Origin: an uncultured Candidatus Saccharibacteria bacterium
Lineage (GTDB): Bacteria > Patescibacteriota > Minisyncoccia > Phycocordibacterales > UBA9973
Reading direction: 5' to 3'
Assembly: GCA_964637995.1 (NCBI GenBank)
Contig: CAZWXV010000002.1
Location: forward strand, 15,122 to 67,159
DNA: 52,038 nucleotides
In this document: piece by piece, positions 2,734 to 36,573 of the stretch
How positions within the stretch are numbered: position 1 is the stretch's first letter
Layout: every line of letters starts with the position of its first letter
Notes under the pieces: generated by a model
What the model was told of the DNA's origin: nothing
The model's input: only the letters and a program-made list of their open reading frames with translations
Databases searched by the model: none
Position numbers and translations under genes: made by a program

Positions 2734-3720
2734 TTATTTTTTTAGTTTGTCCGGCAGTACGGCAAAATAGTCTTCGATATATGGGAACATCGTGTCGCAG
2801 GCAACGAATACCACGTTTGTGTTCTTCTTGAGTTTTTTGTCTGCTTTCATTTTTTTCAGAGTTTGTAAAATTCCCGCAAGCTGCATGCCCGTCGAGGGCC
2901 CGACGAAGATTCCCTCGCGGATAAGCCGGAGACTCATCGCGAAGGCCGGTATATCCCTGATCGGCAGTTCCAGATCCGCGACTTTTTCCCACGGCAGGCC
3001 AAGCTTTTTGACCGCGTCTTCGCCGCGGGGACCGGGAATTTCGGACCCTCTTTTTATTGAAGTTGCTATCACGAACAAATCGGGAATTTTCTTTTTCAGA
3101 TAAGAGCCGCTGCCGACAACCGTGCCGCCGGTGCCGATACTGGCGCAAAGAATATTGATTTTATTCCCGAATTGTTGCCAGAGTTCTTTTCCGATTATTT
3201 CGCTGGATGCCTTGGGGTTGCCGGGGTTTATATACTGATTTAAATTTTTCCAGCCCCGCTTTCCCCCCATTTGCTTCGCATTCCAGATGCCGCCTATTTT
3301 TCCATGAACGTCCGGCGAGGGCGGACCATGAGAAATAATCAGGTTGGTGCCCAGAAGACGTAGAAGGTTCTGCTTATTTTTCGGCACGTCCGGAGTTATG
3401 ATGGCGTGCATATTTGGGATGCCGAAATGCCTGGATAAAACAGCCAGAGACATCACCGTATTGCCGGAAGAATATTCCACCAAGTGTTTTATTCTCCGGA
3501 GCTCCTTTTTGGGAATCGCATTCAGCATATACCAAGCGGGGAGGGATTTTATGTTTGCCAAGGGTACGCTTTGTACGAGCTTTACATAAATATGGACACC
3601 GTTTTTTAAATACGGATTTAAACGGGCAGGGAGCTCTATGACCGGAGTCGGGCCGGTTGCGCCCGGCGTGAGGTATTCAAAGATGGCCTTTTCACCCCTA
3701 AAGACATTTTTATGATTCAT
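2734..3720 (-). CDS. Cysteine synthase-family (fold-type II) PLP-dependent enzyme
   Basis: 328 aa. Contains SSGNT (CysK uses TSGNT), the GTGGT phosphate-binding loop, and a candidate PLP lysine in PLANIKS. Divergent from canonical CysK. Confidence 0.7.
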   Translation of the reverse strand: MNHKNVFRGEKAIFEYLTPGATGPTPVIELPARLNPYLKNGVHIYVKLVQSVPLANIKSLPAWYMLNAIPKKELRRIKHLVEYSSGNTVMSLAVLSRHFGIPNMHAIITPDVPKNKQNLLRLLGTNLIISHGPPSPDVHGKIGGIWNAKQMGGKRGWKNLNQYINPGNPKASSEIIGKELWQQFGNKINILCASIGTGGTVVGSGSYLKKKIPDLFVIATSIKRGSEIPGPRGEDAVKKLGLPWEKVADLELPIRDIPAFAMSLRLIREGIFVGPSTGMQLAGILQTLKKMKADKKLKKNTNVVFVACDTMFPYIEDYFAVLPDKLKK

Positions 3721-3729
3721 GGCTGAATT

Positions 3730-4140
3730 TTATTTCCATAAATCACTAAGTTTGATTGAATTAAATCCGGGAATTTTATATTCATGCCGGGTTGTTTTAT
3801 GAGGGAATACTTTGGGGCTTAGAGCCATTTTTATAACCTTTTTCTTGTCCACGGGAATATGGGGCTTTCGGGCGTGCACCCGAACCGAGCGGTCGTTTAA
3901 ATAATTCACCACGTAGCAGGGCACGTTCTTTAATCCCAGTCTATGGGCGGCATAACATCGGTGATGGCCGTCGAGAATCGTTTTGGTTTCCGAGTCAATT
4001 AGGAGGGGAACCTTGAATCGGCCCGAGAAGATCATTTTAAGCACCAGATATATCGCATGGCGGATCTTAACCTTCTCGTGCGCGATCAACTCCCGGGGGC
4101 TGATAAGAACGATATTATCTTTTTTGTCTTCGGTAGTCAC
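3730..4140 (-). CDS. ParB/Srx (sulfiredoxin)-fold domain protein, GTG start
   Basis: 136 aa. Contains ILDGHHRCYAAHRLGLKNVPCYVV, a ParB-like nuclease/Srx signature. Lies 9 nt upstream of the PLP enzyme on the same strand. Confidence 0.65.
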   Translation of the reverse strand: MTTEDKKDNIVLISPRELIAHEKVKIRHAIYLVLKMIFSGRFKVPLLIDSETKTILDGHHRCYAAHRLGLKNVPCYVVNYLNDRSVRVHARKPHIPVDKKKVIKMALSPKVFPHKTTRHEYKIPGFNSIKLSDLWK

Positions 4141-4146
4141 TTATTG

Positions 4147-4152
4147 ATTATA
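4147..4152 (-). promoter_or_regulatory. -10 box TATAAT, 6 nt upstream of the GTG start of the ParB-like gene (leaderless-type)
   Basis: The reverse strand reads catagTATAATcaataaGTG. Confidence 0.45.
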
Positions 4153-4166
4153 CTATGTTTTGTAAG

Positions 4167-4955
4167 TTATAAATTTATGGTGCCTTCAAATACGAATTCC
4201 GCAGGGCCGCGAAGGATAATCTGCCCCTCGTCGTTTTGCGACAAGTGAAGATTGCCGCCGGGGAATTGGAGCGTTACTTCCCCCATATCCTTATTTTCAT
4301 TTTTCAGTATTGCATACACGGCGCAAGCTCCACTGCCGCAAGCAAGAGTAGGGAACCCACCTCTTTCCCAAACTATAACTTTAAAATAATCGTCTCCAAC
4401 TTTTTCTACAAGCTCCACATTTATTTTATTTGGGAAATGAGGATCATTTTCAACCCTAGGGCCTATCTCTAGTAGACTAATTTGATTTAGATCTTTTACT
4501 ATTCCCACAGCATGTGGATTTCCCATTGAGGCGAAATCAAATGAAATATTTTCGAGAGTGAGCGGTCCGTTAGGGAAATCATTATGAGAAAATACCGGAG
4601 TCCCCATATTTACTGAAAAACTTCCGTCGTCATTACATATTACTTTTTTTACTCCGGCTCGGGTGGCGACTAACAACTCTTCCATACTAAAGTTTTTCTG
4701 TTCTGTAAAAAATTTAGCCACACATCTTATTCCATTCCCGCACATTTCTTTTATAGACCCGTCAGAATCGTAATAATTCATAAAACAATCCGCATTTTCC
4801 CTGGACTCAACAAGTATTAACCCGTCTGCGCCGATGCCTTTATGTCTATCGCACAACAAAACAACTTGTTTTTTTGACAAAACAAGCTTTCCATTCATAT
4901 TATCTATGATTATTAAATCATTGCCGGCTCCGTGATATTTATAAAATTTAAGCAT
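4167..4955 (-). CDS. dapF: Diaminopimelate epimerase
   Basis: 262 aa. Starts MLKFYKYHGAGNDLIIID and has both catalytic Cys motifs (CGNGIRC and ACGSGACA). Confidence 0.9.
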   Translation of the reverse strand: MLKFYKYHGAGNDLIIIDNMNGKLVLSKKQVVLLCDRHKGIGADGLILVESRENADCFMNYYDSDGSIKEMCGNGIRCVAKFFTEQKNFSMEELLVATRAGVKKVICNDDGSFSVNMGTPVFSHNDFPNGPLTLENISFDFASMGNPHAVGIVKDLNQISLLEIGPRVENDPHFPNKINVELVEKVGDDYFKVIVWERGGFPTLACGSGACAVYAILKNENKDMGEVTLQFPGGNLHLSQNDEGQIILRGPAEFVFEGTINL

Positions 4956-5082: not shown

Positions 5083-5958
5083 TCAGTTGCCGTTGGCAAT
5101 CCGGGTTCCCGGATGCTCGGGTTTGTTGATGTTCCGGATGACGAGAGGAATGCCTGAAACCAGAAGCGGCTGGATAGTTCTCGGATGAAGCATACCAGCA
5201 GTTCTAGCGAACTCGTCGGCGTCCTGAAACGTCAGCCTGCTTCTAGTGCGGGCGGTTTTGTCATGACGTGGATCGCCTGTCATTATGCCGTCGACGTCGG
5301 TCAGTTTATGGACCTCTCGCGCGCCGAGGCAGGCGCCCAGAAGGGTAGCGGTGAGGTCCGAGCCCTCGCGCCCGATGGTTGTTGTTACACCATCCCCAGT
5401 GGACCCGATGAACCCGCCGATCACGGGCACGATACCACGCTTGACCACCGGCAGAATGATTGCCCGTGCTCGCTCCTGCGTAGCATCCCAGTCGGGATTT
5501 GCCTCAGTATGTTTGTCGTCGGTGATAATCACTTCCCGCGCGTCAATCCACTGCGACTGCAGTCCGACACGGCAGAGGACTTCCGTGAGTAGTTGGCTAC
5601 TCGCCAACTCGCCAGCGGCAAGAACCTCGTCCATGAAGCGGGGAAAATTACCGTTGAGGACCACAGACTTTAGTCGCTCGAACTCGTTCCTGAGCCGGTT
5701 GCCCATATGGAGCCACAGCGACAGAGCCATGTAGTCGTGCCTCCGGGCGATGGAGTTCAAAAGATGATGCGCTGCCGCCAGCTTGCCATCGCGGATGAGC
5801 TCAGACACCTCGGTCAGATGGTTTGTCACCAGCGCTAGTGCTGAGACCACCACTACTGGCATGCTCCCTTTCGCCACTTCGCCTTTCACCCAGTCGATGA
5901 CTTTTTGCATCGCGGGTGCGTCCTTGACCGCCGAACCGCCGAACTTGATCACAATCAT
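5083..5958 (-). CDS. Aspartate kinase, catalytic (amino-acid kinase) domain only; no ACT domains
   Basis: 291 aa. Starts MIVIKFGGSAV, contains GREGSDLTA, and ends ...IRNINKPEHPGTRI, where ACT domains normally begin. GC is about 60-65% in hand-counted lines, against about 40% for the adjacent dapF. It has a GAGGGG Shine-Dalgarno-like element. Confidence 0.8.
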   Translation of the reverse strand: MIVIKFGGSAVKDAPAMQKVIDWVKGEVAKGSMPVVVVSALALVTNHLTEVSELIRDGKLAAAHHLLNSIARRHDYMALSLWLHMGNRLRNEFERLKSVVLNGNFPRFMDEVLAAGELASSQLLTEVLCRVGLQSQWIDAREVIITDDKHTEANPDWDATQERARAIILPVVKRGIVPVIGGFIGSTGDGVTTTIGREGSDLTATLLGACLGAREVHKLTDVDGIMTGDPRHDKTARTRSRLTFQDADEFARTAGMLHPRTIQPLLVSGIPLVIRNINKPEHPGTRIANGN

Positions 5959-6124: not shown

Positions 6125-6781
6125 ATGATCAAAATACAGCCGATTGTGGAGGAAATAGTGCGGGGAGAGTTTGAAGCCTATATGGCCTTGACCAATAACT
6201 ACATGAATATGTCGAGTTATGCACACCGTATTCGCCCCGAAGTAGAAGCCCGGACCAAGAAAGAAGCGACCATAACAAGTATAGTTGTTTCGTTGTCACG
6301 GCTGCGTAAAGGATTCAAAAAAGAAAAGCCCCTTGTCTTCAATGTGCCGATAAAGAACATAACCACCAAGCTGCCGTTGTCGGAAATAATATTTGAGAGC
6401 AGGGATGCGTTCGTCAGGGATTTGGAAACGCTTCACAAAGACATTGCCGTTTCCCAGGAAGATTTTTTCACGTCAACAATAGGCACCACCGAAGTGGATA
6501 TTATCTGCTCTTCCAATCTGGAAGATAAGATAGTCAGGCATTTTAAAGTAAAACCAAAAAGCGTGAATCGAAACCTAGCGGCCGTCGGGATTTCTTTTAG
6601 CTGGGAAGTGTTTGGCATGCCCAATGTGTTTTTTTCGCTTTTGTCTGTTACGGCCCGCGCTCGGATAAACATCGAAGAGCTGGTTTCCACGCCGACCGAG
6701 CTCATATTCATAATTGCCGAGCGGGATTTTGGCAGAACGGTAGCTTTGTTTTCAGAATTGCATAGACAAACCAATCAGTGA
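6125..6781 (+). CDS. Hypothetical protein with ACT-like C-terminal region
   Basis: 218 aa. The C-terminus NLAAVGISFSWEVFGMPNVFFSLLSVTARARINIEELVSTPTELIFIIAERDFGRTVALFSELH resembles the ACT domain of aspartokinases. This rests on pattern recognition only. Confidence 0.35.
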   Translation: MIKIQPIVEEIVRGEFEAYMALTNNYMNMSSYAHRIRPEVEARTKKEATITSIVVSLSRLRKGFKKEKPLVFNVPIKNITTKLPLSEIIFESRDAFVRDLETLHKDIAVSQEDFFTSTIGTTEVDIICSSNLEDKIVRHFKVKPKSVNRNLAAVGISFSWEVFGMPNVFFSLLSVTARARINIEELVSTPTELIFIIAERDFGRTVALFSELHRQTNQ

Positions 6782-15699: not shown

Positions 15700-16758
15700 A
15701 TGCAAGCATTGGGAAAGAAAAATACGAATACCTTTCTTCACAATCTTCGCATCCGTGCTACCGATGGATATATCCGGAAAATAATTCTTACGGAAACGGA
15801 AGATGAGCGCGTACTTCTAGCCGCGAAAATTCTCGCAGGAAAGACGGGCAGCGAAAAAATCGCCGAGCCGATTTTTGTTTGTAGTGCCCCAGACACTGCC
15901 AAGATGAAAGCGCTTGGATTTGCCTATATTGAAATAGAAGAGGAGCGAGCAGAAACTCTCCAAAATTTACTCCTCGAGCTACGGTCGTCAAAGAAAGGTA
16001 GCAAGGATGAATTGACTCCCGAGATGGCGCACCGCCTTGCACGCGACCCCTTGATGTACGGCATGTACCTGTTGCGCCTGGGGGAGGGCGATGGATTGGT
16101 GGCGGGTGCGGAACGTACGAGTGCGGATGTTCTACGGGCAGGACTTTGGCTCGTCGGTAAAGCCCCCGGTATACGGACGGTCTCGAGCTCATTTTATATG
16201 ATTGTCCCGCCTTTTCGGGGCACGGATGGCGAAAAGGTTTCGGAGGTCCTGACTTTTTCCGATTGCGCCGTTGTGCCCGAACCAACTTCGGAGCAACTCG
16301 CGGACATTGCCATTGCGGCCTCGGATGCACGTTCTCGTATTGTCGGAGATGAGCCCAAGGTCGCGCTTCTTTCTTACAGCACCAAAGGTTCCGGCGGCAA
16401 CGGTCAGTCAATAGCCATTATTAGAGAAGCACTCGAATTGGTACGCGGGAGGAGGCCGGGGCTCGTTATTGACGGCGAAATTCAAGCAGATGCGGCGCTT
16501 GTCAAATCTATTTCCGAGCGCAAGGCACCGGGAAATTTACTCGATGGCAGGGCTAACGTATTAATTTTCCCATCCCTCGACGCGGCAAATATCGCCTATA
16601 AGCTCGTAGCGTGTCTCTTGCCGGGAACAGCGGCGCTCGGCCCGGTCTTGCAGGGTATGAAAAAACCGATCAGCGACCTATCCCGCGGAGTACGGGTCGA
16701 AGATATCGTCAATATAGTAAGCATTGTTGCATCCCAGGCCCATGAACCTCATGAATAA
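15700..16758 (+). CDS. pta: Phosphate acetyltransferase
   Basis: 352 aa with [37 protein letters not shown], and [18 protein letters not shown]. Confidence 0.85.
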
Positions 16759-19123
16759 AAAGAATTATTTACCCGAAGACGTTATCGCAAAAATCGATGC
16801 TTACTGGCGCGCAGCCAACTATCTCTCGATCGGGCAAATTTATCTCTATGAAAACCCGCTTCTCAAGCGCCCGCTTTCGGCAGACGATATCAAGCCGCTA
16901 CTCATGGGTCATTGGGGCACGTCACCGGGGCAGAATTTCATCTATGTGCATCTAAATAGGATAATAAAAAAGTACGACCTCGATATGCTTTACATCTCCG
17001 GCCCCGGCCACGGCGGCCCGTCCTTGCTTGCCAATACTTACCTTGAGGGCACCTATAGTGAAGTGTATCCGGAGATCAGCCAGGACGAGGAGGGGATGAA
17101 GAAATTGTTCAAGCAATTTTCCTTTCCCGGCGGCGTACCCAGTCACGTCTCCCCGGAATGTCCCGGGTCTATTCACGAGGGCGGTGAGCTAGGTTACTCA
17201 CTTTCCCACGCGTTCGGGGCGGTATTTGATAACCCGGATTTAATTACCGCATGCGTTGTAGGGGACGGGGAAGCGGAGACGGGACCCTTGGCGGCCTCCT
17301 GGCATTCGAACAAATTTCTCAATCCTAAGACCGATGGCGCGGTGTTGCCCATTCTCCACTTAAATGGATATAAAATTTCAAACCCGACTATTTTTGCGCG
17401 TATTTCAAAAGAAGAATTAGACCAGTTGTTCCGCGGGTATGGCTGGATACCGCACATCATCGAAGGCGAAGATCCACAGACGATGCATCAAGCGATGGCA
17501 GAAAAACTAGATGAGGTCGTTCTCGAAATACAGCGCATACAAACAGATGCTCGGCAGCGGAATGTAACCACCCGGCCACGCTGGCCAATGATAATTCTCA
17601 TAACGCCGAAAGGTTGGACTGGGCCGAAAGTTATCGACGGCAAACCGAATGAAGGCACTTTTCGTTCGCATCAAGTCATATTTGCCGATCTCAAAACAAA
17701 CAAAGAACATTTAACAGAGTTCACCAAGTGGCTCAAGAGCTATAAACCGGAAGAACTATTTGACGCCGCAGGCAGATTAAAACCGGAACTCGCGGAACTG
17801 GCGCCGACCGGCTCGCGACGCATGGGATCGAATCCGCATGCGAACGGCGGTTTATTACTGCGTGAACTTCACATGCCGGATTGGAAGAATTATGGAGTAG
17901 TTATCAAAAAACGCGGGGAAGAAGGAGAGGGGGCGACTAGGGTATTCGCGCGGTTTCTGCGGGATATAATCAAGGCGAACGAAAAAGAGCGGAATTTTCG
18001 CTTATTCGGTCCGGACGAGACCATATCTAACGGCCTCGGTGCGGTATTTGAGGTTACCGATCGGCAAATGATGACGGCAGAGATAAGCGATGACGAGTTT
18101 ACATCACCGTCCGGGCGCGTGATGGAGATTTTGAGTGAGCACTTGTGCCAAGGGTGGCTTGAGGGATACCTCTTGACAGGCCGGCACGGGTTGTTCAACA
18201 GCTACGAAGCTTTTATTCATATTATTAGCTCCATGTTCAATCAGCATGCCAAGTGGTTGAATGTTACCGCGCGTATTCCCTGGAGAAAAAAAATCGCGTC
18301 TTTAAATTATCTTATTTCCTCTCACGTATGGAGACAGGGACATAACGGCTTTACTCATCAGGATCCCGGGTTCATCGATCATGTGTATCAAAAGAAAGCC
18401 GATATTATCCAGGTCTATCTGCCGCCCGATGCGAATTGTTTGCTGACTGTTATGGACAAGTGCCTGCGGAGCATGCATAAAATTAACGTCGTCGTAGCCG
18501 GCAAGCACCCAATGCCGCAATGGTTCTCCGTAGAGGAGGCGGTTACCCACTCCGAGAAAGGCATAGGAGTTCTCCGTTGGGCAAGCAACGACAAAGACGC
18601 AGAACCGGACGCCGTTATGGCCTGCGCCGGAGATGTGCCGACGCTCGAAGTGCTAGCGGCGGTATCCATAATTCGGGAACATCTTCCAGAACTTAAGCTT
18701 CGGGTTATTAACGTGCTGGACCTCATGACTCTTCGGCCACGCAAAAATCACCCTCACGGCACTACAGATGAGGAATTCGAGGCGCTCTTTACGAAAGACA
18801 AACCGATAACTTTCATTTTTCACGGATATTCGTCGCTCATTCATCGCCTCACCTATAGCCGTCCTAACCACGAAAACATGCATGTGTATGGATACAGGGA
18901 GGAGGGCACGACTACCACTCCTTTCGATATGACAGTCCTAAACTCGATAGACCGCTATCACATTGTAAAATACGTCATTGAGTCACTCCAGAATAAGGGT
19001 GATAAGGAAACGCGTCTGTTCAAACTAATGGAAGAAAAACTTGACGAACATCGCCGGTACGTCGTCGTGCACGGTGAGGATGTGCCCGAAGTGCGAAACT
19101 GGAGATGGCCTAGAGAAGGATAA
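16724..19123 (+). CDS. xfp: Xylulose-5-phosphate/fructose-6-phosphate phosphoketolase
   Basis: 799 aa with [18 protein letters not shown] and [11 protein letters not shown]. Alternative in-frame starts at 16742 or 16751 would shorten the overlap with pta. Confidence 0.9.
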
Positions 19124-29934: not shown

Positions 29935-32900
29935 TTGGTGAACAAAATAAAAAAAATTGGCCTGACAAAGAGCATCAAAACGACACTGCCCGCAGTTTTG
30001 CTGTTTTTCTTTGTTTTTTACAACATTCTCTTTGCGGCGCCGGGTACGCCGCTTATGCTCCACCATCAGGGCCGGCTGCTTGATTCTTCGGGCAATCTTT
30101 TAGGTGGCTCTTCCGGCACTAATTATTGTTTCCGCTTTTCTTTCTATGATAATGCCACGGTAGGTAGCGGTTCCAAACTTTGGCCTGCCGGTACGCCGTC
30201 AAAAATGACGGTCAACGTCAAAGACGGAGTACTCAATGCCGACATCGGCGACACGACCGCCGGCGGAGACTCTCTGGATTTTAATTTCCAAACTACAGAT
30301 GAAATTTATCTCAACATTGAGGTGGCCAATTCTTCGGGAGGGTCCTGCGCGAGCGTAACTACCTTCGAAACCTTGAGTCCGCGCCAGCGCGTAGTTTCCG
30401 CAGGTTACGCTATCAATTCTAAGACAGTCGGCGGCTTCACTCCTTCGCAGACTCCTACGGGCAATCAGATCCCCGTGCTTACTTCCGGCGTACTGGCTTT
30501 GGGCGCGAATGACATCACCATGACCGGTTCTATTGGCACGACGCTCGCGAGAATTCTCAAGGGCTGGTTCACGGATTTGGAAGTGACCAATTCGATAGTC
30601 GGTAGCATCACGGGGAATGCGGGAACGGTAACGACCAATGCGAACTTAACGGGGGCAGTTACCTCTGTCGGCAATGCTACATCTTTAGGTTCGTTTACAT
30701 CAGCCAACTTACTGACTGCTTTAACTGATGAAACGGGAACGGGAGTCGCGGTGTTCGGCACAGCGCCGACATTTACTACTAGCATAACTGCGCCTCTTGT
30801 AATAGGGGGAACGGGAACAACTGATGATTTGATTTTAAGAACTACTTCTGGTGTGGGAGCGACAGGCGCGGATATGATTTTCCAAGTCGGCAATAATGGC
30901 GCCACGGAAGCCATGCGGATACTGAATTCCGGTTTTGTGGGAATAGGTACGACAGCGCCATCAACCCTCCTTCACCTTCGGAGCGCGGACCCAGTGATGA
31001 CCTTTACCGACACAACGGCTAGTAGTGATGAGTTCCATATTCGGAACGGCGCTGCGGGGACAGCTATGTTTGATATTTATAATGCTACTGAAACCCAGAG
31101 TATGCTTACGATAGTGGGAGATAGCGAGGTGAGAATCGGCTCAAGTACAAATCCGGGAGGTATAGGCAATGCTAGTCGCTTACTTGTTTATGGCGGAACA
31201 AACGGTGCAAATATTGACGCTTTGGGAGATGGAACCATTGTCGGCGGCGACCAGGCGACTATTGAACTGGAAGGTTCTGACTACGCAACAGAGTTCAAAA
31301 GCACTCGCCTTCAGTACCATGGGGTAAATGCTATCGGCACAACGATGGGTTTCAGCCTGGTTAACCTCGGACAATTGACATTTCAGAGCGCTAGTACGGC
31401 TATAATAAGGACGACCAATGCCATACCAATAATCTTTGGAACAGACGACACAGAAAGAATGCGTCTAGATAGCACCGGAAAACTCGGTATCGGTTCAATC
31501 TCACCCGAAGCCCTCCTCGAAGTACAGGGAATAGAAGCCACCGATGCGATCATCGCGCTCGATGCGGACGACGGAGACGATGCTACTGATACTTGGTTTA
31601 TAAAATCTCTGGCTTCCGACAATTCTCTTTCAATATTAAATGATGTTACTGAAGTTTTTAATCTTTCCTCAGGAGGGAATCTTGCGGTTGACGGCACTAT
31701 TGCCGCTTCCAACTTCTCAGGTTCTTCTTCCGGTGCAAATACCGGCGATGTCACCTTGGCTGGAACTCCCGACTACATAACTATCGCCAGTCAAGTCATA
31801 ACCAGAAACAAACTTGACCCGGCGGATGATTTAAATACTTTTGCGTCAGGCGTTCTTGCTGGTCTAGTAACCGACGAAATCGGAACGGGAGCTTTAGTAT
31901 TTGCAACTTCCCCAACTTTGACTACCCCGGTTTTAGGCGTAGCCACTGGAACAAGCCTTGCCACATCAGCCCAAAATATTTTCACGGCTACCGGAGGGAC
32001 TGCCCCGCTCGTTGTTCGTTCGGCTACGGCTACGGATGACGATTTAAGACTCTTGCCTTTTACAACCGGTGCTGCGCGCTTTGCCGGCATTATAACCTCC
32101 GCTGACCTTACCGCTGATAGAACTTATACTTTTCCAGATACTACCGGAACGGTTGCCCTGACCACTAACAATCTCTCGGTCTTTGCCGCTACCACTTCGG
32201 CTCAACTGGCCGGAGTAATCAGCGATGAAACCGGCAGCGGAGTTCTAGTCTTCGCCACAAGTCCTACCCTTGTAACGCCTGCTCTCGGAACACCGTCAGC
32301 ATTAGTTGGCACAAACATTACAGGCACAGCTTCCGGTTTGACTGCCGGTAATGTGACGACCAATGCGAATTTGACGGGAGCTATCACTTCTGTCGGCAAT
32401 GCCACATCTTTAGGCTCGTTTTCATCAGCTAATTTATTGACTGCCTTAACGGATGAAACGGGAACAGGAGTGGCGGTCTTTGGAACAGCTCCGACATTTA
32501 CAACCCAAATAACCACACCCCTTGTTTTAGGCGGAACTTCGACTACTCAAGATTTATCTTTCCAAACCACATCTGGCGTAGGCGCCACGGGAGCCGATAT
32601 GCATTTCTTGGTAGGCAACAATGGAACTACGGAAGCCATGACTATTTTGAATAGTGGTTTTGTTGGAATTGGAACAGTAGCCCCGCTAACTGCATTTCAC
32701 GTGGTAGATACTTCGGGAACTGTTCTCTACCTTGATGAGTATGTGGGGTCGGCTTCAGGAGCAACCATCCGTGGACGAAAAGCGCGGGGAACGGCAGCAG
32801 CACCTCGAAGGGCTAACACCGGGGATACACTTGCAGGATTTAATGCATTCGGAGCAACAGCTGTCGATGATGCGACTGACGCGGTATTTCCTTCTAACGC

Positions 32901-35900
32901 AAACGGGCAGTTCAGATATTTCGCCGCGGAGAATTTCACTTCCACGTCCACAGGAACATATTTGACTTTAACCACTACACCTACAGGGTCTACAACCTCT
33001 GCAGAAAGGTTTAGAATTGACCCTTCCGGAGATGTCGGGATTGGCGCCACGGACCCGGCTCTTGTTTCAGGATCCTCCGATAGGATTTTAGCAATTGAAG
33101 GAGCCACTAATCCGTTAATCGCTCTTAAGAACACAACAGCCAATCAGCAGTGGGCTTGGTATGTCGGTAGTGCCGGCACACTTACTGCGTTCGACGCGAC
33201 AAGCACAAGTAATAGAATGGGTATTACTACGTCCGGCAATGTCGGCATAAATACCATTTCACCTCTTGTCAGACTCGACGTCGCAGGCTCAGGCAGATTT
33301 ACCGGCACAGCGACTTCTGTTTTGACCGGTACTATTGATCCCGCGGCTTCCACTACGGTTACTGGTGTAGGAACTTTATTTACTACTGAACTAGTAGTCG
33401 GCGACAGAATCACCGTCACGGGCGAGACAAGAACGGTTACAGCCATCGCTACGAATACTAGTTTGACCGTAGATACAGCTTTCACGGATAACTTAAACGA
33501 CACCTCTCCCGACAAACTGGCGGCTATATTGCTGGCGAGGGATTCCAGCAATGTAGTGAAGGTTGCGGTGAATGATTCCGGGTTTGTTGGAATAGGAACC
33601 AGCAGTCCTTCCACGTTACTTTCTGTGGTTGGAGTAGGCACCGCAGAATCGGCACGAATAGACAATCCACAATCAACTACCGCTTTTGCTTCCACATTTG
33701 GAGCTTTGAATTTGGTAAATTCTGACGCTACGGCAAATAACTTTGCGAGACTGAATTTCACAGGTTCTTCAAGTACCGCAGCTTCAGCCACAGTCGCAGG
33801 TAGATTGCTTGACCACACTAATAATTATGCCGACCTTACTTTTTGGACTAGAAGCGCCGCAGGATTCACGGAAAAAATGACAATTCTTTCCACAGGTGCC
33901 GTCGGCATCGGGACAAACGCGCCGGACTACACCTTAGACGTAGCTGTCAGCGATTCCGCCACTGCCACCGTTGCACAACTCTTGAGGCTGTCTCACAGGA
34001 GCACCGGCCTTGTTGCCAGCGGTTTTGGAGCCGGAATCCGGTTTGATCTGGAGACTGCAGCTGACACACTTCAGGAGGCGGGAAGCATAGAAACTTCATG
34101 GAGAAACGGCCCAGATGCGGATGCGCATATGATTTTTAAACTTTTTACCGAAGGCGGAACATCCCAGCAGTTCTTTAAAATTGATTCCATAGGCTCCGTG
34201 GAGATTGGAGCGGCTGATAGCACCGTGGCTACAATATTGAATAATAAAATAACTTTACACGATCCATCCACAGCCCTTTCCAACGATGCTACATTTGGAA
34301 CCATTGATTTCCAACACTCTGATGCTTCAGATCCCGGTGTACCTGTTAAGATAGAAGCCAGAGCAGACGGCACGACCGGCGGCGGGGCCTTGGTTTTCTC
34401 GACCGGTTTCCCTTCCGTCGACCCGGCATTGTCCGAGAAAATGCGAATAACTAATTCCGGCAACGTTGGTATCGGTACCTCGGCGCCTCTACTAAAACTC
34501 GACGTCGCCGGTTCGGAAAGAGTCACCGGTGCTGCAACTTCTGTTTTAACAGGAAGTATTAACCCAACAGCATCAACAGCTGTTGTTGGCGTTGGCACTC
34601 TCTTCACTACGGAATTAGTAGTTGGTGACAGAATTACTGTTAGCGGAGAAACAAGAACAGTAACAGTCATAACTGATGCTCTAAACCTTACCGTTGATAC
34701 AGCTTTTACCGATACTGCTAACGACACAACGCCGGATAAATTACCCGCAATATTCTTAGCCAGAGATTCCAGTAATGCGGTGAAATTCTCGGTTAATGAT
34801 TTGGGAAATGTGGGTATCGGAACAGCAGCGCCGCTATCTACTTTCCACCTATTTAGTAGTGCAACATCTGATGTATTTGCAGGCATGGGCCTTGACCCCT
34901 CTTTCGGGGGAGCAGGTAGCGCAATGAATTTCGGTTATTCTGGCGCATCTTTTGGTAGAGGTTCAGGTTTCTTTAATGTTAGACCAGACGCTTCTGCCAC
35001 AGGCCTTAACCCATCTCTTAGATTCGCAACAAATAATATTGTGGGTCTTGTTATTGATAAAAACCAAAATGTGTCAATTGGCGCTTCTCTCGCCGTGGGA
35101 ACCAGCGCGGTCAAAGTATTTGGGATCGGCAACGGTACTGCTCCTACAACAGCCCCCGCCGACATGATTCAGTTATGGTCTGCCGATTATGCAGCGGGAG
35201 ATGCCCGTCTTTTCCTTCGTTCCGAATCGGGCAACGCGATGGCTTTGGGCAACAGCACTATCGTGGGCGGCTCGGCAACAACGGATGATTTGATTCTTCG
35301 CACCACATCCGGAGTCGGAGCCGCTGGCGCGGATATGATATTCCAAGTGGGGAACAACGGAGCCACGGAATCTATGAGAATTTTAAATAGCGGCAATGTC
35401 GGCATATCGACTACTGTGCCGCAGTCCTTGCTGGATGTGCAAGGTCCAGTGGGTACGGGAGCAACATCCGCAGGTATCCTCACTCTTGCTACAAAGGAAC
35501 TTACTATAGTTGATAACGACCAGTTGGGACGAATCAATTTTAATTCACCTCTTGAGTCGGATGGTCTAGATTCTATTTTAGCAGGCGGGGCCATATGGGC
35601 TGAAGCCGAAGCTACTTTCAGCACTACAGTTAATAGCACAGCATTGGTATTTGGCACAGCTACTACATCGGCGGCGGTGGAAAGAATGAGGATCGACAGC
35701 GCGGGCGGGATTACTTTCCCTGCCGAAGCAGGAGCATTCGCGAACGACTATTTGTGTATAGCTACGGGGACTGGAGCCATCAGTTCCAAGGCAACAGCAT
35801 GTACCGGAAGCTCTTCATTACGATACAAGAAAAATATTAAAGACCTTGAACTTGGGCTTGATGCGGTGCTGGCGATGCGCCCTGTGGAGTTTGATTGGAC

Positions 35901-36573
35901 TCTAGAATACATAAAAAATCCTAATGCCCCTCGCCAGATAGGATTCATTGCCGAAGAGATGGAAAAGATCAGTCCATTGTTCGTATCGTATGAGGATGGG
36001 CAAATAGAGGGAGTAGAGTATATGAAACTTACATCTGTATTAGCAAAGGCAATTCAGGATTTGAATCTAAATCTAGAATCAATAGCAATTCCACTTGATT
36101 TTGAAAATGAAAAATCGTTTGCGGAAAGGTTTTTCGCCAAGATGACGGAGTGGCTCGCGGATGCGGGCAATGGCATAACGGATATGTTTGCCAATACGTT
36201 CAATGCCAAAGAAAAAATTTGTGTGGACGGGGAGTGCCTGACCAAGGAAGACATCCGCGCCCTGCTCATCCTATCCGGCTCATCTTCTTCAGGTTCTTCA
36301 GGCGGCGGCGGTTCTCCTGCTCCTGAGCCCGCGCCGGAACCTGCCCCTGAACCAACTCCGGAACCAGCACCCGAACCAGTTCCGGAGCCCGCACCCGAGC
36401 CGACTCCAGAACCGGAACCTGTCCCTGAACCAATCCCGGAACCTACACCAGAGCCTACTCCCGAACCCGCACCCGTACCCGAACCTGTTGTTGAACCTAC
36501 ACCTGAACCCGAACCTGCCCCAGAACCCGTCACCGCCGATGGCGGGACCCCGCAGGATGCGGTGGCGCTTTAA
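29935..36573 (+). CDS. Giant (2212 aa) secreted phage-tail-fibre-like protein with a peptidase-S74 intramolecular chaperone domain and a PEPx-repeat tail
   Basis: TTG (29935) or GTG (29938) start, with an N-terminal signal/anchor. Ten modules end in ...MRI..SG.VGIGT..P...[15 protein letters not shown]...[13 protein letters not shown]...[17 protein letters not shown] domain matches the tail-fibre/endosialidase chaperone pattern. The C-terminus is a Gly/Ser run followed by (PEPx)n. Confidence 0.85.
30631..30960 (+). repeat. Intragenic repeat family 1, copy a (330 nt)
   Basis: Encodes [22 protein letters not shown]...[32 protein letters not shown]. Clearly similar at the DNA level to 32356..32685, offset exactly 1725 nt and in frame. 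Confidence 0.85.
32356..32685 (+). repeat. Intragenic repeat family 1, copy b
   Basis: Encodes [22 protein letters not shown]...[32 protein letters not shown]. Confidence 0.85.
33235..33609 (+). repeat. Intragenic repeat family 2, copy a (375 nt)
   Basis: Encodes [36 protein letters not shown]...[24 protein letters not shown]...FVGIGTSSP. Confidence 0.85.
34459..34833 (+). repeat. Intragenic repeat family 2, copy b (offset exactly 1224 nt)
   Basis: Encodes [36 protein letters not shown]...[24 protein letters not shown]...NVGIGTAAP. Confidence 0.85.
35266..35421 (+). repeat. Intragenic repeat family 1, partial copy c
   Basis: Encodes [52 protein letters not shown], matching the second half of copy a. 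Confidence 0.8.
36316..36528 (+). repeat. Tandem 12-nt (Pro-Glu-Pro-X) coding repeat
   Basis: Encodes [71 protein letters not shown]. Confidence 0.9.

What the first reader, a model, noticed from the sequence alone, without database searches (positions are those of the whole stretch)
2734..4152. Two-gene operon: ParB/Srx-fold protein + divergent cysteine-synthase-like PLP enzyme (possible serine-kinase / O-phosphoserine route)
Seen: a 136-aa protein with ILDGHHRCYAAHRLG (ParB/sulfiredoxin fold signature) is followed 9 nt later by a 328-aa fold-type II PLP enzyme (SSGNT, GTGGT). A TATAAT sits 6 nt upstream of the first gene's GTG start.

Established: the free serine kinase SerK of Thermococcus kodakarensis has a ParB/Srx-like fold and supplies O-phosphoserine to cysteine synthase. 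Some CysK homologues are O-phosphoserine sulfhydrylases.

Inference: the pair could be a compact serine kinase plus OPS-sulfhydrylase cysteine (or related beta-replacement) pathway in an organism otherwise poor in amino-acid synthesis. Alternatives are a sulfiredoxin-like repair enzyme or a DNA-binding ParB-like protein that is adjacent only by chance. At 136 aa the protein is much shorter than SerK as I recall it, which weakens the idea.
Basis: partly seen in the sequence, partly recalled or inferred. Interest (0 to 1): 0.65.

Follow-up and report, generated by a model that had tools for sequence, protein, structure and literature searches.

The report
Miniature serine kinase plus phosphoserine-using PLP enzyme
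A candidate-phyla-radiation bacterium carries a stripped-down 136-residue relative of the archaeal free serine kinase next to a cysteine-synthase-like enzyme whose nearest solved relative uses O-phosphoserine; the two probably form a two-gene route from serine to cysteine or a related amino acid.

Summary
On the minus strand, a 136-aa ORF (3730-4140) lies 9 nt upstream of a 328-aa fold-type II PLP enzyme (2734-3720). dapF and an aspartate kinase lie just upstream on the same strand.

The 136-aa protein is a SerK/SbnI-type free serine kinase without the central domain. It keeps the catalytic Glu (E22 = Tk-SerK E30), DGHHR and the C-terminal FPxKTTRH motif. Its AF2 model matches only free serine kinases at high TM-score (0.82).

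The PLP enzyme's closest solved relative is aspergillomarasmine A synthase, which uses O-phosphoserine (OPS). It also has the Arg that aligns with R220 of the M. tuberculosis OPS-dependent CysM.

Relatives of the mini-kinase sit next to, overlap, or are fused to five different PLP-enzyme subfamilies:
- the window type;
- a rhodanese-fused type;
- SbnA-like enzymes;
- TrpB2 (OPS-dependent);
- genuine CysK/M.

Gene order varies among these loci.

The product (cysteine, or a C-N or thioether product) is unresolved. The TATAAT is no more than chance. I class this as a new variant of a known kind.

The parts
3730..4140 (-). Mini-SerK: a 136-aa SerK/SbnI-like putative free serine kinase. It has the ParB/Srx-fold core plus the C-terminal KTTRH segment and lacks the central domain.
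   Evidence: ORF. NCBIfam SerK model E=1.7e-9, below its cutoff. PDB phmmer hits 1vk1 at 4e-8 and 5x0b at 3e-6. AF2 pLDDT 87. Foldseek top 9 hits are all SerK/SbnI, TMq up to 0.82.
4075..4077 (-). Codon of E22, the putative catalytic base. It is part of the invariant H21-E22 pair.
   Evidence: E22 aligns with the Tk-SerK position that is Q in 5x0j (E30Q) and A in 5x0e (E30A). It is invariant in A1 and A3. Coordinates checked.
3958..3972 (-). DGHHR motif (residues 57-61). It is the start of a GxxRxxA nucleotide-phosphate-binding motif typical of the ParB/Srx fold.
   Evidence: D57, G58, H60 and R61 are invariant across mini and full-length SerK-like proteins; H59 is nearly invariant (Asn in the Proteus L033 protein).
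3784..3798 (-). KTTRH motif (residues 115-119). It is shared with the C-terminal end of SerK.
   Evidence: Second HMMER stretch aligns query 98-134 with SerK 204-241. K115, T116, T117 and H119 are invariant in A3. Coordinates checked.
3721..3729 (-). 9-nt spacer between the two genes (AATTCAGCC).
2734..3720 (-). 328-aa fold-type II PLP beta-replacement enzyme of the AMA-synthase-like clade, without a rhodanese domain. Putative OPS-dependent synthase.
   Evidence: Pfam PALP 9e-39. All NCBIfam CysK/CysM/SbnA models score far below their cutoffs. Best PDB hit is 8h4q/8h4h at E=3e-52, against 1e-24 for CysM. These entries are aspergillomarasmine A synthase, one in complex with OPS; TMq 0.91-0.92.
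3547..3549 (-). Codon of K58, the PLP-binding lysine.
   Evidence: Aligns with the PLP lysine column of E. coli CysK/CysM and M. tuberculosis CysM (K51) and is invariant.
3457..3471 (-). SSGNT substrate-carboxylate ('asparagine') loop, residues 84-88.
   Evidence: Aligns with TSGNTG of CysK/CysM.
3121..3135 (-). GTGGT loop that binds the PLP phosphate, residues 196-200.
3025..3027 (-). Codon of R232 in the short CysM-type loop IPGPRGE. Candidate binder of the phosphate leaving group or another anion.
   Evidence: Invariant in the family. Aligns with M. tuberculosis CysM R220 and E. coli CysM R210. CysK has a longer loop with no Arg at this position.
4167..4955 (-). dapF (diaminopimelate epimerase), 26 nt upstream on the same strand. 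Probably co-transcribed with the pair.
   Evidence: TIGR00652 scores 249 bits against a cutoff of 115. dapF lies directly upstream of the window-type PLP enzyme in L013/L014, L052 and L054 as well.
5083..5958 (-). Aspartate kinase catalytic domain (291 aa, no ACT domains), 127 nt upstream of dapF. Possibly the first gene of the same transcription unit.
4147..4152 (-). TATAAT hexamer 6 nt before the GTG start. Present, but not evidence of a promoter.
   Evidence: 36 copies in the window against 31 +/- 6 expected. No matching -35 was found.

Best explanation
The pair is a two-enzyme module.

Step 1. The 136-aa protein is a minimal free L-serine kinase of the SerK/SbnI type. It uses the ParB/Srx-fold nucleotide site (D57-G-H-H-R61-x-x-A), E22 as catalytic base, and the C-terminal FPxKTTRH segment to phosphorylate L-serine to O-phospho-L-serine (OPS). 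Whether the phosphate donor is ATP or ADP is unknown.

Step 2. The 328-aa PLP enzyme binds OPS on its K58-PLP. The SSGNT loop holds the carboxylate and R232 holds the phosphate. Phosphate is eliminated to give the aminoacrylate intermediate, and a nucleophile then adds to it. The most likely nucleophile is sulfide or a persulfide, giving L-cysteine.

In a reduced Patescibacteria (Paceibacterota) genome this would be a cheap salvage route from imported serine to cysteine.

What is shown: fold and motif conservation, and gene linkage and fusion with OPS-dependent PLP enzymes. What is inferred: kinase activity, serine as the substrate, and sulfide as the nucleophile.
For: Kinase identity:
- NCBIfam SerK is the only meaningful family hit. 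PDB phmmer finds PF0380 and Tk-SerK over both the N-terminal core and the C-terminal KTTRH segment.
- The AF2 model (pLDDT 87) gives free serine kinases as the top 9 Foldseek hits: SerK TMq 0.81-0.82, SbnI 0.66-0.73. ParB, Noc and Srx reach only E~1e-3 and TMq<0.5.
- E22 falls in the column mutated in the E30Q and E30A SerK crystal structures.
- E22, D57, G58, H60, R61, F112, P113, K115, T116, T117 and H119 are invariant across mini and full-length archaeal SerK-like proteins. The mini form differs by absence of an insert that is itself variable in length, about 60-110 aa.

PLP enzyme:
- The closest solved relative is AMA synthase (E=3e-52, TMq 0.92), crystallised with OPS. It is reported to condense OPS with L-Asp (PMC12751119; bioRxiv 10.1101/2025.10.30.685158).
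- R232 aligns with R220 of the OPS-dependent M. tuberculosis CysM.

Linkage:
- Mini-kinase genes are adjacent to or overlap PLP enzymes of five subfamilies, in varying order. These are: window type in the orders kinase->PLP, PLP->kinase and divergent (window, L052, L054, L058); PLP-rhodanese (L004-6); SbnA-like (L007, L015, L016); TrpB2 plus TrpRS (L020-22); CysM-like in an archaeon (L025).
- TrpB2 and SbnA are known OPS users (PMC11917138; PMC12751119).
- Natural fusions exist: mini::CysK/M, which scores above the TIGR01136 cutoff, and mini::PLP enzyme.
- Seven further close pairs share contig lengths.

Sulfur as nucleophile:
- The CPR paralogue 40% identical to the window enzyme carries a rhodanese domain with an intact CRSGRRS active-site loop.
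- There is no SbnB-type or FAD-oxidase partner near window-type loci.
Against: - There is no biochemical test, so the kinase substrate and phosphate donor are inferred only from homology.
- The mini protein scores far below the curated SerK cutoff (37 against 380 bits). It lacks about 90 residues of SerK whose role I could not check, because the SerK and SbnI structure papers are not in the held library.
- The closest characterised relatives of the PLP enzyme (AMA synthase, and Fda4, which shares its PLP-rhodanese architecture) form C-N bonds, not C-S bonds. AMA synthase also keeps a Cys in its rhodanese loop, so the rhodanese argument for sulfur is weak.
- E. coli CysM has the same Arg but uses O-acetylserine, so R232 does not prove OPS use.
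- About half of the mini-kinase loci have no adjacent PLP enzyme (L001, L056, L017-19, L023-27). Many window-type PLP genes have no adjacent kinase (L010-13).
- Some family members sit in kinase/nucleotidyltransferase/LicD contexts, where the substrate need not be serine.
Confidence: 0.5

Rival explanations
1. The kinase makes OPS as above, but the PLP enzyme forms a C-N bond like its closest solved relative. It would condense OPS with the alpha-amine of an amino acid, as AMA synthase, SbnA, Fda4 and Tln5 do. The product would be an N-(2-amino-2-carboxyethyl)-amino acid, which is a 2,3-diaminopropionate precursor or a metal-binding compound.
For: - The best sequence and structure match is AMA synthase, well ahead of any cysteine synthase (E=3e-52 against 1e-24; TMq 0.92 against about 0.75-0.8).
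- The N-terminal and C-terminal family-specific segments are shared with AMA synthase.
- The closest mini-kinase orthologues (73-77% identity, L015 and L016) are paired with an SbnA-like enzyme.
- Proteus and Arsenophonus clusters combine an SbnA-like enzyme, octopine dehydrogenase, a transporter and a mini-kinase.
Against: - Identity to AMA synthase is only 31-32%.
- No SbnB/OCD-type or FAD oxidase, ligase or exporter accompanies window-type loci. Their neighbours are dapF, prfA or a TrpR-like gene.
- The gene is widespread as a housekeeping-looking single gene in Paceibacterota. That fits primary metabolism better than a specialised metabolite.
Confidence: 0.17
2. The PLP enzyme makes a thioether diamino acid for the cell wall, such as L,L-lanthionine from OPS plus cysteine, or cystathionine. 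The adjacent DapF would then epimerise it to the meso form for peptidoglycan. This would parallel meso-lanthionine in Fusobacterium; that precedent is from my own knowledge and was not checked here.
For: dapF lies directly upstream of the window-type PLP enzyme in four different contexts whose other neighbours differ: the window, L013/L014, L052 and L054. dapA or dapD lie nearby in L058 and L013.
Against: - Aspartate kinase, dapA and dapD near these loci argue that the ordinary diaminopimelate pathway exists. DapF is then explained without lanthionine.
- This DapF is a normal equivalog-level DapF.
- The syntenic L007 locus has the kinase and a PLP enzyme but no dapF.
- There is no direct evidence on the peptidoglycan chemistry of these organisms.
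Confidence: 0.08
3. The 136-aa protein is not a serine kinase. It could be a ParB-like nuclease or DNA-binding protein, a sulfiredoxin-like repair enzyme, a kinase for another small hydroxyl compound, or a non-catalytic partner or regulator of the PLP enzyme. In the nuclease, DNA-binding and repair cases its adjacency to the PLP enzyme would be incidental; a regulatory partner or a kinase for another substrate would still be functionally linked.
For: - The protein lacks the SerK central domain and is far below the SerK model cutoff.
- PF0380, the best hit, was once reported as a nuclease (PMC5120207).
- Some family members occur with nucleotidyltransferase and LicD genes, or alone.
Against: - There is no HTH or dimerisation domain.
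- The sulfiredoxin catalytic Cys position is His (DGHHR).
- Structural matches to ParB, Noc and Srx are partial, with TMq<0.5.
- The catalytic Glu and the KTTRH motif, specific to SerK-type kinases, are invariant.
- Adjacency, overlap and fusion with five PLP-enzyme subfamilies cannot be chance.
Confidence: 0.15

Closest known systems
SerK (TK0378), the ADP-dependent free L-serine kinase of Thermococcus kodakarensis, working with an OPS-using CysK
   Same: - ParB/Srx-fold core.
- Catalytic Glu (E30 = E22), DGHHR, and the C-terminal FPxKTTRH segment.
- Best sequence and structure match.
- Same proposed logic: serine -> OPS -> cysteine (PMC5120207).
   Different: - 136 aa against about 240 aa. 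The central 60-110-residue insert is absent.
- Bacterial (Patescibacteria) rather than hyperthermophilic archaeal.
- Scores 37 bits against the curated cutoff of 380.
- In Thermococcus serK and cysK are separate genes (TK0378, TK1687). Here the kinase and the PLP enzyme are 9 nt apart.
- The phosphate donor is unknown.
SbnI + SbnA of Staphylococcus aureus (serine kinase supplying OPS to a CysK-like PLP enzyme in staphyloferrin B synthesis)
   Same: - A bacterial ParB-fold serine kinase encoded with a fold-type II PLP enzyme that uses OPS.
- SbnI is among the top structural matches, TMq 0.66-0.73.
- The nearest orthologues of the window kinase are paired with an SbnA-like enzyme.
   Different: - SbnI is 254 aa and also a transcriptional regulator (NCBIfam name).
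- The window PLP enzyme scores only 100 bits against the SbnA cutoff of 350.
- There is no SbnB or siderophore synthetase context in the window.
Aspergillomarasmine A synthase (PDB 8H4H/8H4Q) and the fungal Fda4
   Same: - AMA synthase is the closest solved relative of the 328-aa enzyme (E=3e-52, 31-32% identity, TMq 0.92).
- Both fungal enzymes are OPS-dependent.
- The short loop with the conserved Arg is shared with AMA synthase.
- The CPR paralogue in L004 shares the whole PLP-rhodanese architecture.
   Different: - The window enzyme has no rhodanese domain.
- The fungal enzymes make C-N bonds in secondary metabolism.
- The nucleophile of the window enzyme is unknown.
M. tuberculosis CysM (Rv1336), an OPS-dependent cysteine synthase
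   Same: - CysM-type short loop, with window R232 aligned to R220.
- Same PLP Lys, Asn loop and glycine-rich loop.
   Different: - Only about 25% identity.
- M. tuberculosis CysM takes sulfur from the CysO thiocarboxylate carrier (3dwg title). No such carrier was seen in the window.
TrpB2 (OPS-dependent tryptophan synthase beta-like enzymes)
   Same: TrpB2 genes overlap mini-kinase genes in L020, L021 and L022 and are followed by TrpRS. This shows the same 'mini-kinase feeds an OPS-dependent PLP enzyme' logic (PMC11917138).
   Different: It is a different PLP subfamily and gives a different product (tryptophan). It is not present in the window.
DUF1015 'SerBK' proteins proposed as serine kinases (GapMind 2026 preprint)
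   Same: They are also remote SbnI-like proteins proposed to interconvert serine and OPS. JGI labels two mini-kinase homologues as DUF1015.
   Different: None of the 27 aligned family members, including the window protein, matches DUF1015 in Pfam even at E<=1. SerBK is linked to serA/serC rather than to CysK-like enzymes.

Membership tests
SerK/SbnI-type free serine kinases | ParB/Srx-like fold of the catalytic core | tested here: met
   AF2 model pLDDT 87. Foldseek top 9 hits are SerK, PF0380 and SbnI, with TMq up to 0.82.
SerK/SbnI-type free serine kinases | Catalytic glutamate (Tk-SerK E30) | tested here: met
   E22 aligns with the column that is Q or A in the E30Q and E30A structures. It is invariant in 27 and in 20 aligned sequences.
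SerK/SbnI-type free serine kinases | DGHHR / GxxRxxA nucleotide-binding motif and the C-terminal FPxKTTRH motif | tested here: met
   D57, G58, H60, R61, F112, P113, K115, T116, T117 and H119 are invariant across mini and full-length proteins.
SerK/SbnI-type free serine kinases | Full two-domain architecture (about 240-255 aa) and a score above the curated NCBIfam cutoff | tested here: not met
   The protein is 136 aa and the central insert is absent. NF053625 scores 37 bits against a cutoff of 380.
SerK/SbnI-type free serine kinases | ATP- or ADP-dependent phosphorylation of free L-serine | not testable with these tools
   Needs an enzyme assay. It is supported only indirectly, by linkage and fusion with OPS-dependent enzymes.
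Sulfiredoxin | Catalytic cysteine in the FGGCHR motif (recalled from knowledge of Srx) | tested here: not met
   The motif is LDGHHR, with His at the Cys position. Srx structures match only partially, at E>=3.6e-3 and TMq 0.35-0.44.
ParB/Noc/KorB CTP-dependent DNA clamps | HTH DNA-binding domain and C-terminal dimerisation domain after the N-terminal nucleotide-binding domain | tested here: not met
   The protein is 136 aa and is entirely accounted for by the SerK-like core. There is no meaningful HTH hit. ParB and Noc align over about 105 columns only, TMq<0.5.
Cysteine synthase CysK/CysM (O-acetylserine or O-phosphoserine sulfhydrylase) | Fold-type II PLP core: PLP lysine, Asn loop, Gln, glycine-rich loop, and Ser at the pyridine N | tested here: met
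   K58, S84-T88, Q162, G196-T200 and S276 align with CysK/CysM.
Cysteine synthase CysK/CysM (O-acetylserine or O-phosphoserine sulfhydrylase) | Score above the curated family cutoffs (TIGR01136/01138/01139) | tested here: not met
   130, 114 and 109 bits against cutoffs of 344, 394 and 351.
Cysteine synthase CysK/CysM (O-acetylserine or O-phosphoserine sulfhydrylase) | Sulfide-dependent formation of cysteine | not testable with these tools
   Needs an assay. The rhodanese-fused paralogue has an intact active-site Cys, but so does the C-N-forming AMA synthase.
AMA-synthase-like PLP-rhodanese enzymes | PLP domain with the family-specific N- and C-terminal segments | tested here: met
   The alignment covers residues 3-324 at E=3e-52. 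TMq is 0.91-0.92.
AMA-synthase-like PLP-rhodanese enzymes | C-terminal rhodanese domain | tested here: not met
   The window protein ends at residue 328 and Pfam finds PALP only. The domain is present in the L004 paralogue.
AMA-synthase-like PLP-rhodanese enzymes | Use of O-phospho-L-serine as the electrophilic substrate | not testable with these tools
   Inferred from homology, from R232 and from the adjacent kinase.

The most novel reading that the evidence does not exclude
The 130-aa 'mini-SerK' is the minimal catalytic unit of a large, so far unrecognised family of small-molecule kinases. The family has more than 1000 clusters at 50% identity and is invisible to Pfam. Its members act as a portable 'serine activation' module that plugs into whichever OPS-dependent PLP enzyme a lineage needs: cysteine, tryptophan (TrpB2 + TrpRS), diaminopropionate-type products, or phospho-serine decorations via nucleotidyltransferase and LicD. 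In Patescibacteria it may form a physical complex with its PLP partner, so that the partner replaces the missing SerK domain and OPS is channelled. With the conserved dapF linkage, the window enzyme's product could even be a cell-wall diamino acid rather than cysteine.
Probability: 0.2. Interest if true: 0.8.

Novelty: new variant of a known kind. Interest (0 to 1): 0.6.

Why it matters
Free serine kinases have so far been described in only two settings: a few hyperthermophilic archaea (SerK) and staphylococcal siderophore clusters (SbnI). The 2016 SerK paper states that clear-cut homologues are not found in bacteria (PMC5120207).

This work points to three changes to that picture:
- A half-size version that keeps all conserved catalytic motifs is widespread (3034 clusters).
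- It is repeatedly wired to O-phosphoserine-dependent PLP enzymes.
- It gives Patescibacteria, usually thought unable to make amino acids, a plausible two-gene route from serine to cysteine, and in other lineages from serine plus indole to tryptophan.

It also offers the smallest natural scaffold of this kinase type for enzymology. For biocatalysis, it suggests one-pot OPS supply to AMA-synthase, SbnA or TrpB2-type enzymes. Both proteins are small and should be soluble, so the prediction can be tested directly.

Tried and rejected
- Promoter claim. TATAAT is at chance frequency and no minus-strand sigma-70-like site lies near the pair. I rejected it as evidence.
- Pfam on the 136-aa protein and on 27 family members finds essentially nothing. 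The JGI 'DUF1015' label could not be reproduced.
- Literature. The PDB codes 8H4H and 8H4Q are not in the held papers. Their identity came from the Foldseek entry titles instead. The SbnI paper (PMC5912478) is not held and the SerK structure paper is not open. Residue roles beyond E30 could therefore not be checked. No held paper links SerK to Patescibacteria.
- Rhodanese argument for sulfur chemistry. The CPR fusion has an intact active-site Cys, but AMA synthase also has a Cys in that loop. The argument does not discriminate.
- R232 as proof of OPS use. E. coli CysM, which uses O-acetylserine, has the same Arg, so this is only permissive.
- Window context. There is no serA, serC, cysE, separate rhodanese or sulfur-carrier gene among the 25 window ORFs scanned against Pfam. 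About 14 kb (22.5-36.6 kb) and the ends of the window were not scanned. The source of sulfur and any alternative OPS supply therefore remain unknown.
- Homoserine kinase plus threonine-synthase-like reading, prompted by the nearby aspartate kinase. I rejected it because the PLP enzyme matches threonine synthases only at E~1e-5 over part of its length, against 1e-38 for cysteine synthases.
- dN/dS. dS is saturated in most pairs, so only the qualitative conclusion of strong purifying selection is usable.
Full report
**1. What is in the sequence**

Both genes lie on the minus strand. The 136-aa ORF is 3730..4140. It has a GTG start and contains ILDGHHRCYAAHRLG. Nine nucleotides later comes a 328-aa ORF, 2734..3720, with an ATG start and the motifs SSGNT and GTGGT.

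Upstream on the same strand are two more genes. dapF (4167..4955) ends 26 nt before the GTG. An aspartate kinase catalytic domain (5083..5958) lies 127 nt before dapF. The four genes may therefore form one transcription unit.

The TATAAT 6 nt before the GTG is real (4147-4152). The hexamer occurs 36 times in the window against 31 +/- 6 in shuffles, and no -35 partner was found. It is not evidence for a promoter.

The rest of the window looks like a Patescibacteria genome. It carries GAPDH, pentose-phosphate genes, phosphoketolase, Pta, GlmS, LeuRS and MurJ. Named homologues come from Candidatus Paceibacterota and Nomurabacteria.

**2. The 136-aa protein is a SerK/SbnI-type kinase core without the central domain**

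Pfam sees nothing in this protein. The only meaningful NCBIfam hit is the archaeal ADP-dependent L-serine kinase SerK. It scores E=1.7e-9 over model positions 12-113 of 244, far below the model's cutoff.

Against PDB sequences, the hits are P. furiosus PF0380 (1vk1, 4e-8) and T. kodakarensis free serine kinase (5x0b, 3e-6). There are two aligned stretches:
- residues 6-105 with SerK 14-116;
- residues 98-134 with SerK 204-241, sharing 'vf.pKTTRH'.

The query residue E22 falls in the column that is Glu in wild-type SerK. That column is Gln in 5x0j and Ala in 5x0e, which Foldseek lists as the E30Q and E30A mutants.

An AF2 model built from 27 homologues is confident (pLDDT 87, pTM 0.80). Its nine best PDB matches are all free serine kinases:
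- SerK and PF0380 at TMq 0.81-0.82, with alignments spanning the whole target;
- SbnI at TMq 0.66-0.73.

ParB, Noc, KorB and sulfiredoxin follow only at E>=1.5e-3 and TMq<0.5.

I aligned mini proteins from several phyla with 200-250-aa archaeal SerK-like proteins. The mini form is the same protein minus an internal insert, which itself varies from about 60 to 110 residues among the archaeal proteins. E22, D57, G58, H60, R61, P74, Y80, F112, P113, K115, T116, T117 and H119 are invariant across both forms.

The sulfiredoxin catalytic Cys position is His here. No HTH or dimerisation domain is present. The gene is under strong purifying selection, with dN 0.14-0.39 and saturated dS.

The family is large. 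A profile search of 1.84 billion representatives gives 3034 clusters at E<=1e-3 and 1095 at E<=1e-10. Most of the best 150 are 110-170 aa.

**3. The 328-aa protein is a divergent CysK/CysM-superfamily enzyme closest to an OPS-dependent enzyme**

It is a PALP-fold enzyme (9e-39). It scores far below the curated cutoffs for CysK, CysM, SbnA, CBS and cysteate synthase.

Its best solved relative by a wide margin is 8h4q/8h4h, at E=3e-52 against 1e-24 for CysM. Foldseek identifies these entries as aspergillomarasmine A synthase, apo and in complex with OPS (TMq 0.91-0.92, 31-32% identity). AMA synthase is reported to condense OPS with L-aspartate. The fungal PLP-rhodanese enzyme Fda4 is reported to condense OPS with L-alanine (PMC12751119; bioRxiv 10.1101/2025.10.30.685158).

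The catalytic apparatus is intact: K58 (PLP lysine), S84-T88, Q162, G196-T200 and S276.

The loop after the fourth strand of the C-terminal domain is short, as in CysM. It carries a family-invariant Arg in IPGPR232GE. This Arg aligns with R220 of M. tuberculosis CysM and R210 of E. coli CysM. I wrote the M. tuberculosis sequence from memory and confirmed that it matches 3dwi/3dwg/3dki over all 323 native residues. 3dki is titled 'an O-phosphoserine dependent cysteine synthase'.

That R220 binds the OPS phosphate is my recollection of the CysM literature, not something I could check. E. coli CysM has the same Arg and uses O-acetylserine. R232 is therefore permissive for OPS use, not proof of it.

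**4. Gene linkage is conserved, in many forms**

*Close relatives with the window-type PLP enzyme.* The order varies:
- kinase then PLP enzyme (the window);
- dapF, PLP enzyme, kinase, prfA (L052/L053, L054);
- divergent orientation (L058).

One of these pairs was confirmed in L052.

*A syntenic locus with a different partner.* In L007-9, L016 and L015 the kinase is 73-77% identical to the window protein. Its partner there is a different PLP subfamily, only 31% identical to the window enzyme and best matched by SbnA. This is an in-place swap of partner.

*Other PLP partners.*
- In L004-6 the kinase (54% identity) overlaps by 10 nt a PLP-rhodanese fusion whose PLP domain is 40% identical to the window enzyme.
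- In a Patescibacteria genome (L021), a gammaproteobacterial MAG (L022) and a Doudnabacteria contig (L020), the kinase is adjacent to or overlaps (by 4 nt in L021 and L022) a TrpB2-type enzyme. That enzyme scores 692-696 bits against a cutoff of 366 (368 bits for the contig-truncated L020 copy). In L021 and L022 a TrpRS gene follows. TrpB2 enzymes are OPS-dependent tryptophan synthases (Busch et al. 2014, as cited in PMC11917138).
- An Ignisphaera archaeon has a CysM-like enzyme next to a 177-aa version of the kinase (L025).
- Proteus and Arsenophonus have an SbnA-like enzyme, an octopine dehydrogenase, a transporter and a binding protein in the same cluster as the mini-kinase.

*Natural fusions.*
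- P0287 is mini-kinase (15-130) fused to a genuine cysteine synthase (TIGR01136, 396 bits against a cutoff of 344).
- P0194 is mini-kinase fused to a CysM-like PLP enzyme.
- P0293 is a SufS-like cysteine desulfurase fused to a mini-kinase.

*Exceptions.* Some mini-kinases have no PLP-enzyme neighbour:
- between rpe and tkt in L001;
- alone in L056;
- with tryptophanase in L018;
- within an arginine operon in L019;
- in Photorhabdus and Providencia polysaccharide clusters, with a nucleotidyltransferase::aminotransferase fusion and, in Providencia vermicola (L027), a LicD gene (L023, L026, L027).

Many window-type PLP genes also lack an adjacent kinase (L010-13).

Roughly 11 of about 25 distinct contexts have a fold-type II PLP enzyme as the immediate neighbour. 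These involve five subfamilies and several gene orders. That is far beyond what inherited synteny or chance can explain.

**5. How it most likely works**

Shown: fold, motif conservation, and linkage and fusion with OPS-dependent enzymes. Inferred: everything below.

- The mini-kinase binds a nucleotide through D57 and G58-x-x-R61-x-x-A64.
- It uses E22 as base, and the KTTRH segment for substrate or phosphate contacts.
- It converts L-serine to OPS.
- The PLP enzyme binds OPS, with R232 on the phosphate, and eliminates phosphate to give the aminoacrylate.
- A nucleophile then adds to the aminoacrylate.

I favour sulfide or persulfide as the nucleophile, giving cysteine. There are three reasons. 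The gene is a widespread housekeeping-looking gene in Paceibacterota. No SbnB-type or oxidase partner accompanies it. A CPR paralogue carries a rhodanese domain with an intact CRSGRRS loop.

The argument is weak, however. AMA synthase forms C-N bonds and also keeps a Cys in its rhodanese loop. A C-N product remains a serious rival. So, at lower probability, does a thioether linked to the recurrent dapF neighbour.

**6. Comparison with what is known**

Functionally this is the SerK-CysK or SbnI-SbnA logic. The kinase fails membership of the curated SerK and SbnI families on length and score, though it meets every motif and fold criterion I could test. The PLP enzyme fails the curated CysK, CysM and SbnA cutoffs. 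It belongs with AMA-synthase-like enzymes but lacks their rhodanese domain.

The SerK discovery paper states that clear-cut homologues are not found in bacteria (PMC5120207). The 2025 ParB-fold survey mentions only SerK, SbnI and Srx as enzymatic members (PMC12704722). The GapMind 2026 preprint proposes the unrelated-looking DUF1015 family as serine kinases. I found no held paper describing the mini form or its link to PLP enzymes in Patescibacteria. The library is incomplete, though, and JGI's automatic annotation already calls one distant member 'L-serine kinase (ADP)'.

**7. Verdict**

- Its worry about the short length is answered by the domain-deletion alignment.
- Its promoter note is not supported.
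- The product is unresolved.
- I rate this a new variant of a known kind, interest about 0.6.

Noticed in passing
window 4167-4955 (dapF); L013 3212-5011; L052 63-1886; L054 146-1967: dapF lies directly upstream of the window-type PLP enzyme in four contexts whose other neighbours differ. dapA (L058) and dapD (L013) lie nearby. The reason for this recurrent link to diaminopimelate genes is unexplained.
   Followed up: partly
window 5083-5958: The aspartate kinase is only 291 aa, a catalytic domain with no ACT regulatory domains. It sits in a stretch of 57.5% GC, against about 40-47% around it. It may have been acquired horizontally or be deregulated.
   Followed up: no
L007/L016 6001-7461 compared with window 2734-4140: In a syntenic locus (same TrpR-like, GAPDH, DnaE and pentose-phosphate neighbours) the mini-kinase is 73% identical to the window protein. 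Its partner PLP enzyme belongs to a different, SbnA-like subfamily (31% identity), and dapF and aspartate kinase are absent. The partner has been swapped in place.
   Followed up: partly
L021 4712-7439; L022 3471-6702; L020 838-2035: TrpB2 overlaps the mini-kinase by 4 nt in a Patescibacteria genome (L021) and a gammaproteobacterial MAG (L022), and a TrpRS gene follows. In L022 the TrpRS carries an N-terminal tRNA_edit domain. In Doudnabacteria (L020) the mini-kinase comes first and TrpB2 follows after a 7-nt gap, cut off by the contig end. This suggests a serine + indole -> tryptophan -> Trp-tRNA salvage cluster.
   Followed up: partly
L023 3133-8451; L026 3141-7556; L027 3062-8298: Photorhabdus and Providencia polysaccharide (O-antigen-like) clusters contain an OCD/mu-crystallin or octopine dehydrogenase, a nucleotidyltransferase::aminotransferase fusion, a mini-kinase and a flippase. 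Providencia vermicola (L027) also has a LicD gene. The logic resembles LicA/LicC/LicD, with the mini-kinase as the kinase.
   Followed up: partly
L033 1468-6438 (Proteus mirabilis ATCC 29906); L029 (Arsenophonus): In Proteus (L033) an SbnA-like PLP enzyme, an octopine dehydrogenase, an MFS transporter, a periplasmic binding protein and a mini-kinase form one cluster. It resembles an opine-type metallophore pathway with an SbnI/SbnA-like front end. In Arsenophonus (L029) an SbnA-like enzyme lies about 3.5 kb upstream of the mini-kinase region; its other genes were not scanned.
   Followed up: no
proteins P0174-P0178, P0195, P0199, P0219, P0259, P0281, P0290, P0293: Other fusions of the mini-kinase domain exist:
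- tandem duplications;
- a GalU-like nucleotidyltransferase;
- a SufS-like cysteine desulfurase;
- a SET domain;
- an NAD-binding oxidoreductase domain.

The family is broader than serine-to-cysteine metabolism.
   Followed up: partly
L018 1851-5306 (Roizmanbacteria): A tryptophanase-like beta-eliminating lyase, a mini-kinase and a class I/II aminotransferase lie in a row. This is another PLP-enzyme association, but with fold-type I enzymes.
   Followed up: no
window 6125-6781 (+): A 218-aa ORF with no Pfam match sits between the aspartate kinase and rpiB. An unannotated 222-aa gene occupies the equivalent position in the syntenic L007; their similarity was not tested.
   Followed up: no
window 15700-19123 and 29935-36573: Phosphate acetyltransferase lies next to a phosphoketolase, a heterofermentative carbon route. 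There is also a single 2212-aa ORF that I did not characterise.
   Followed up: no
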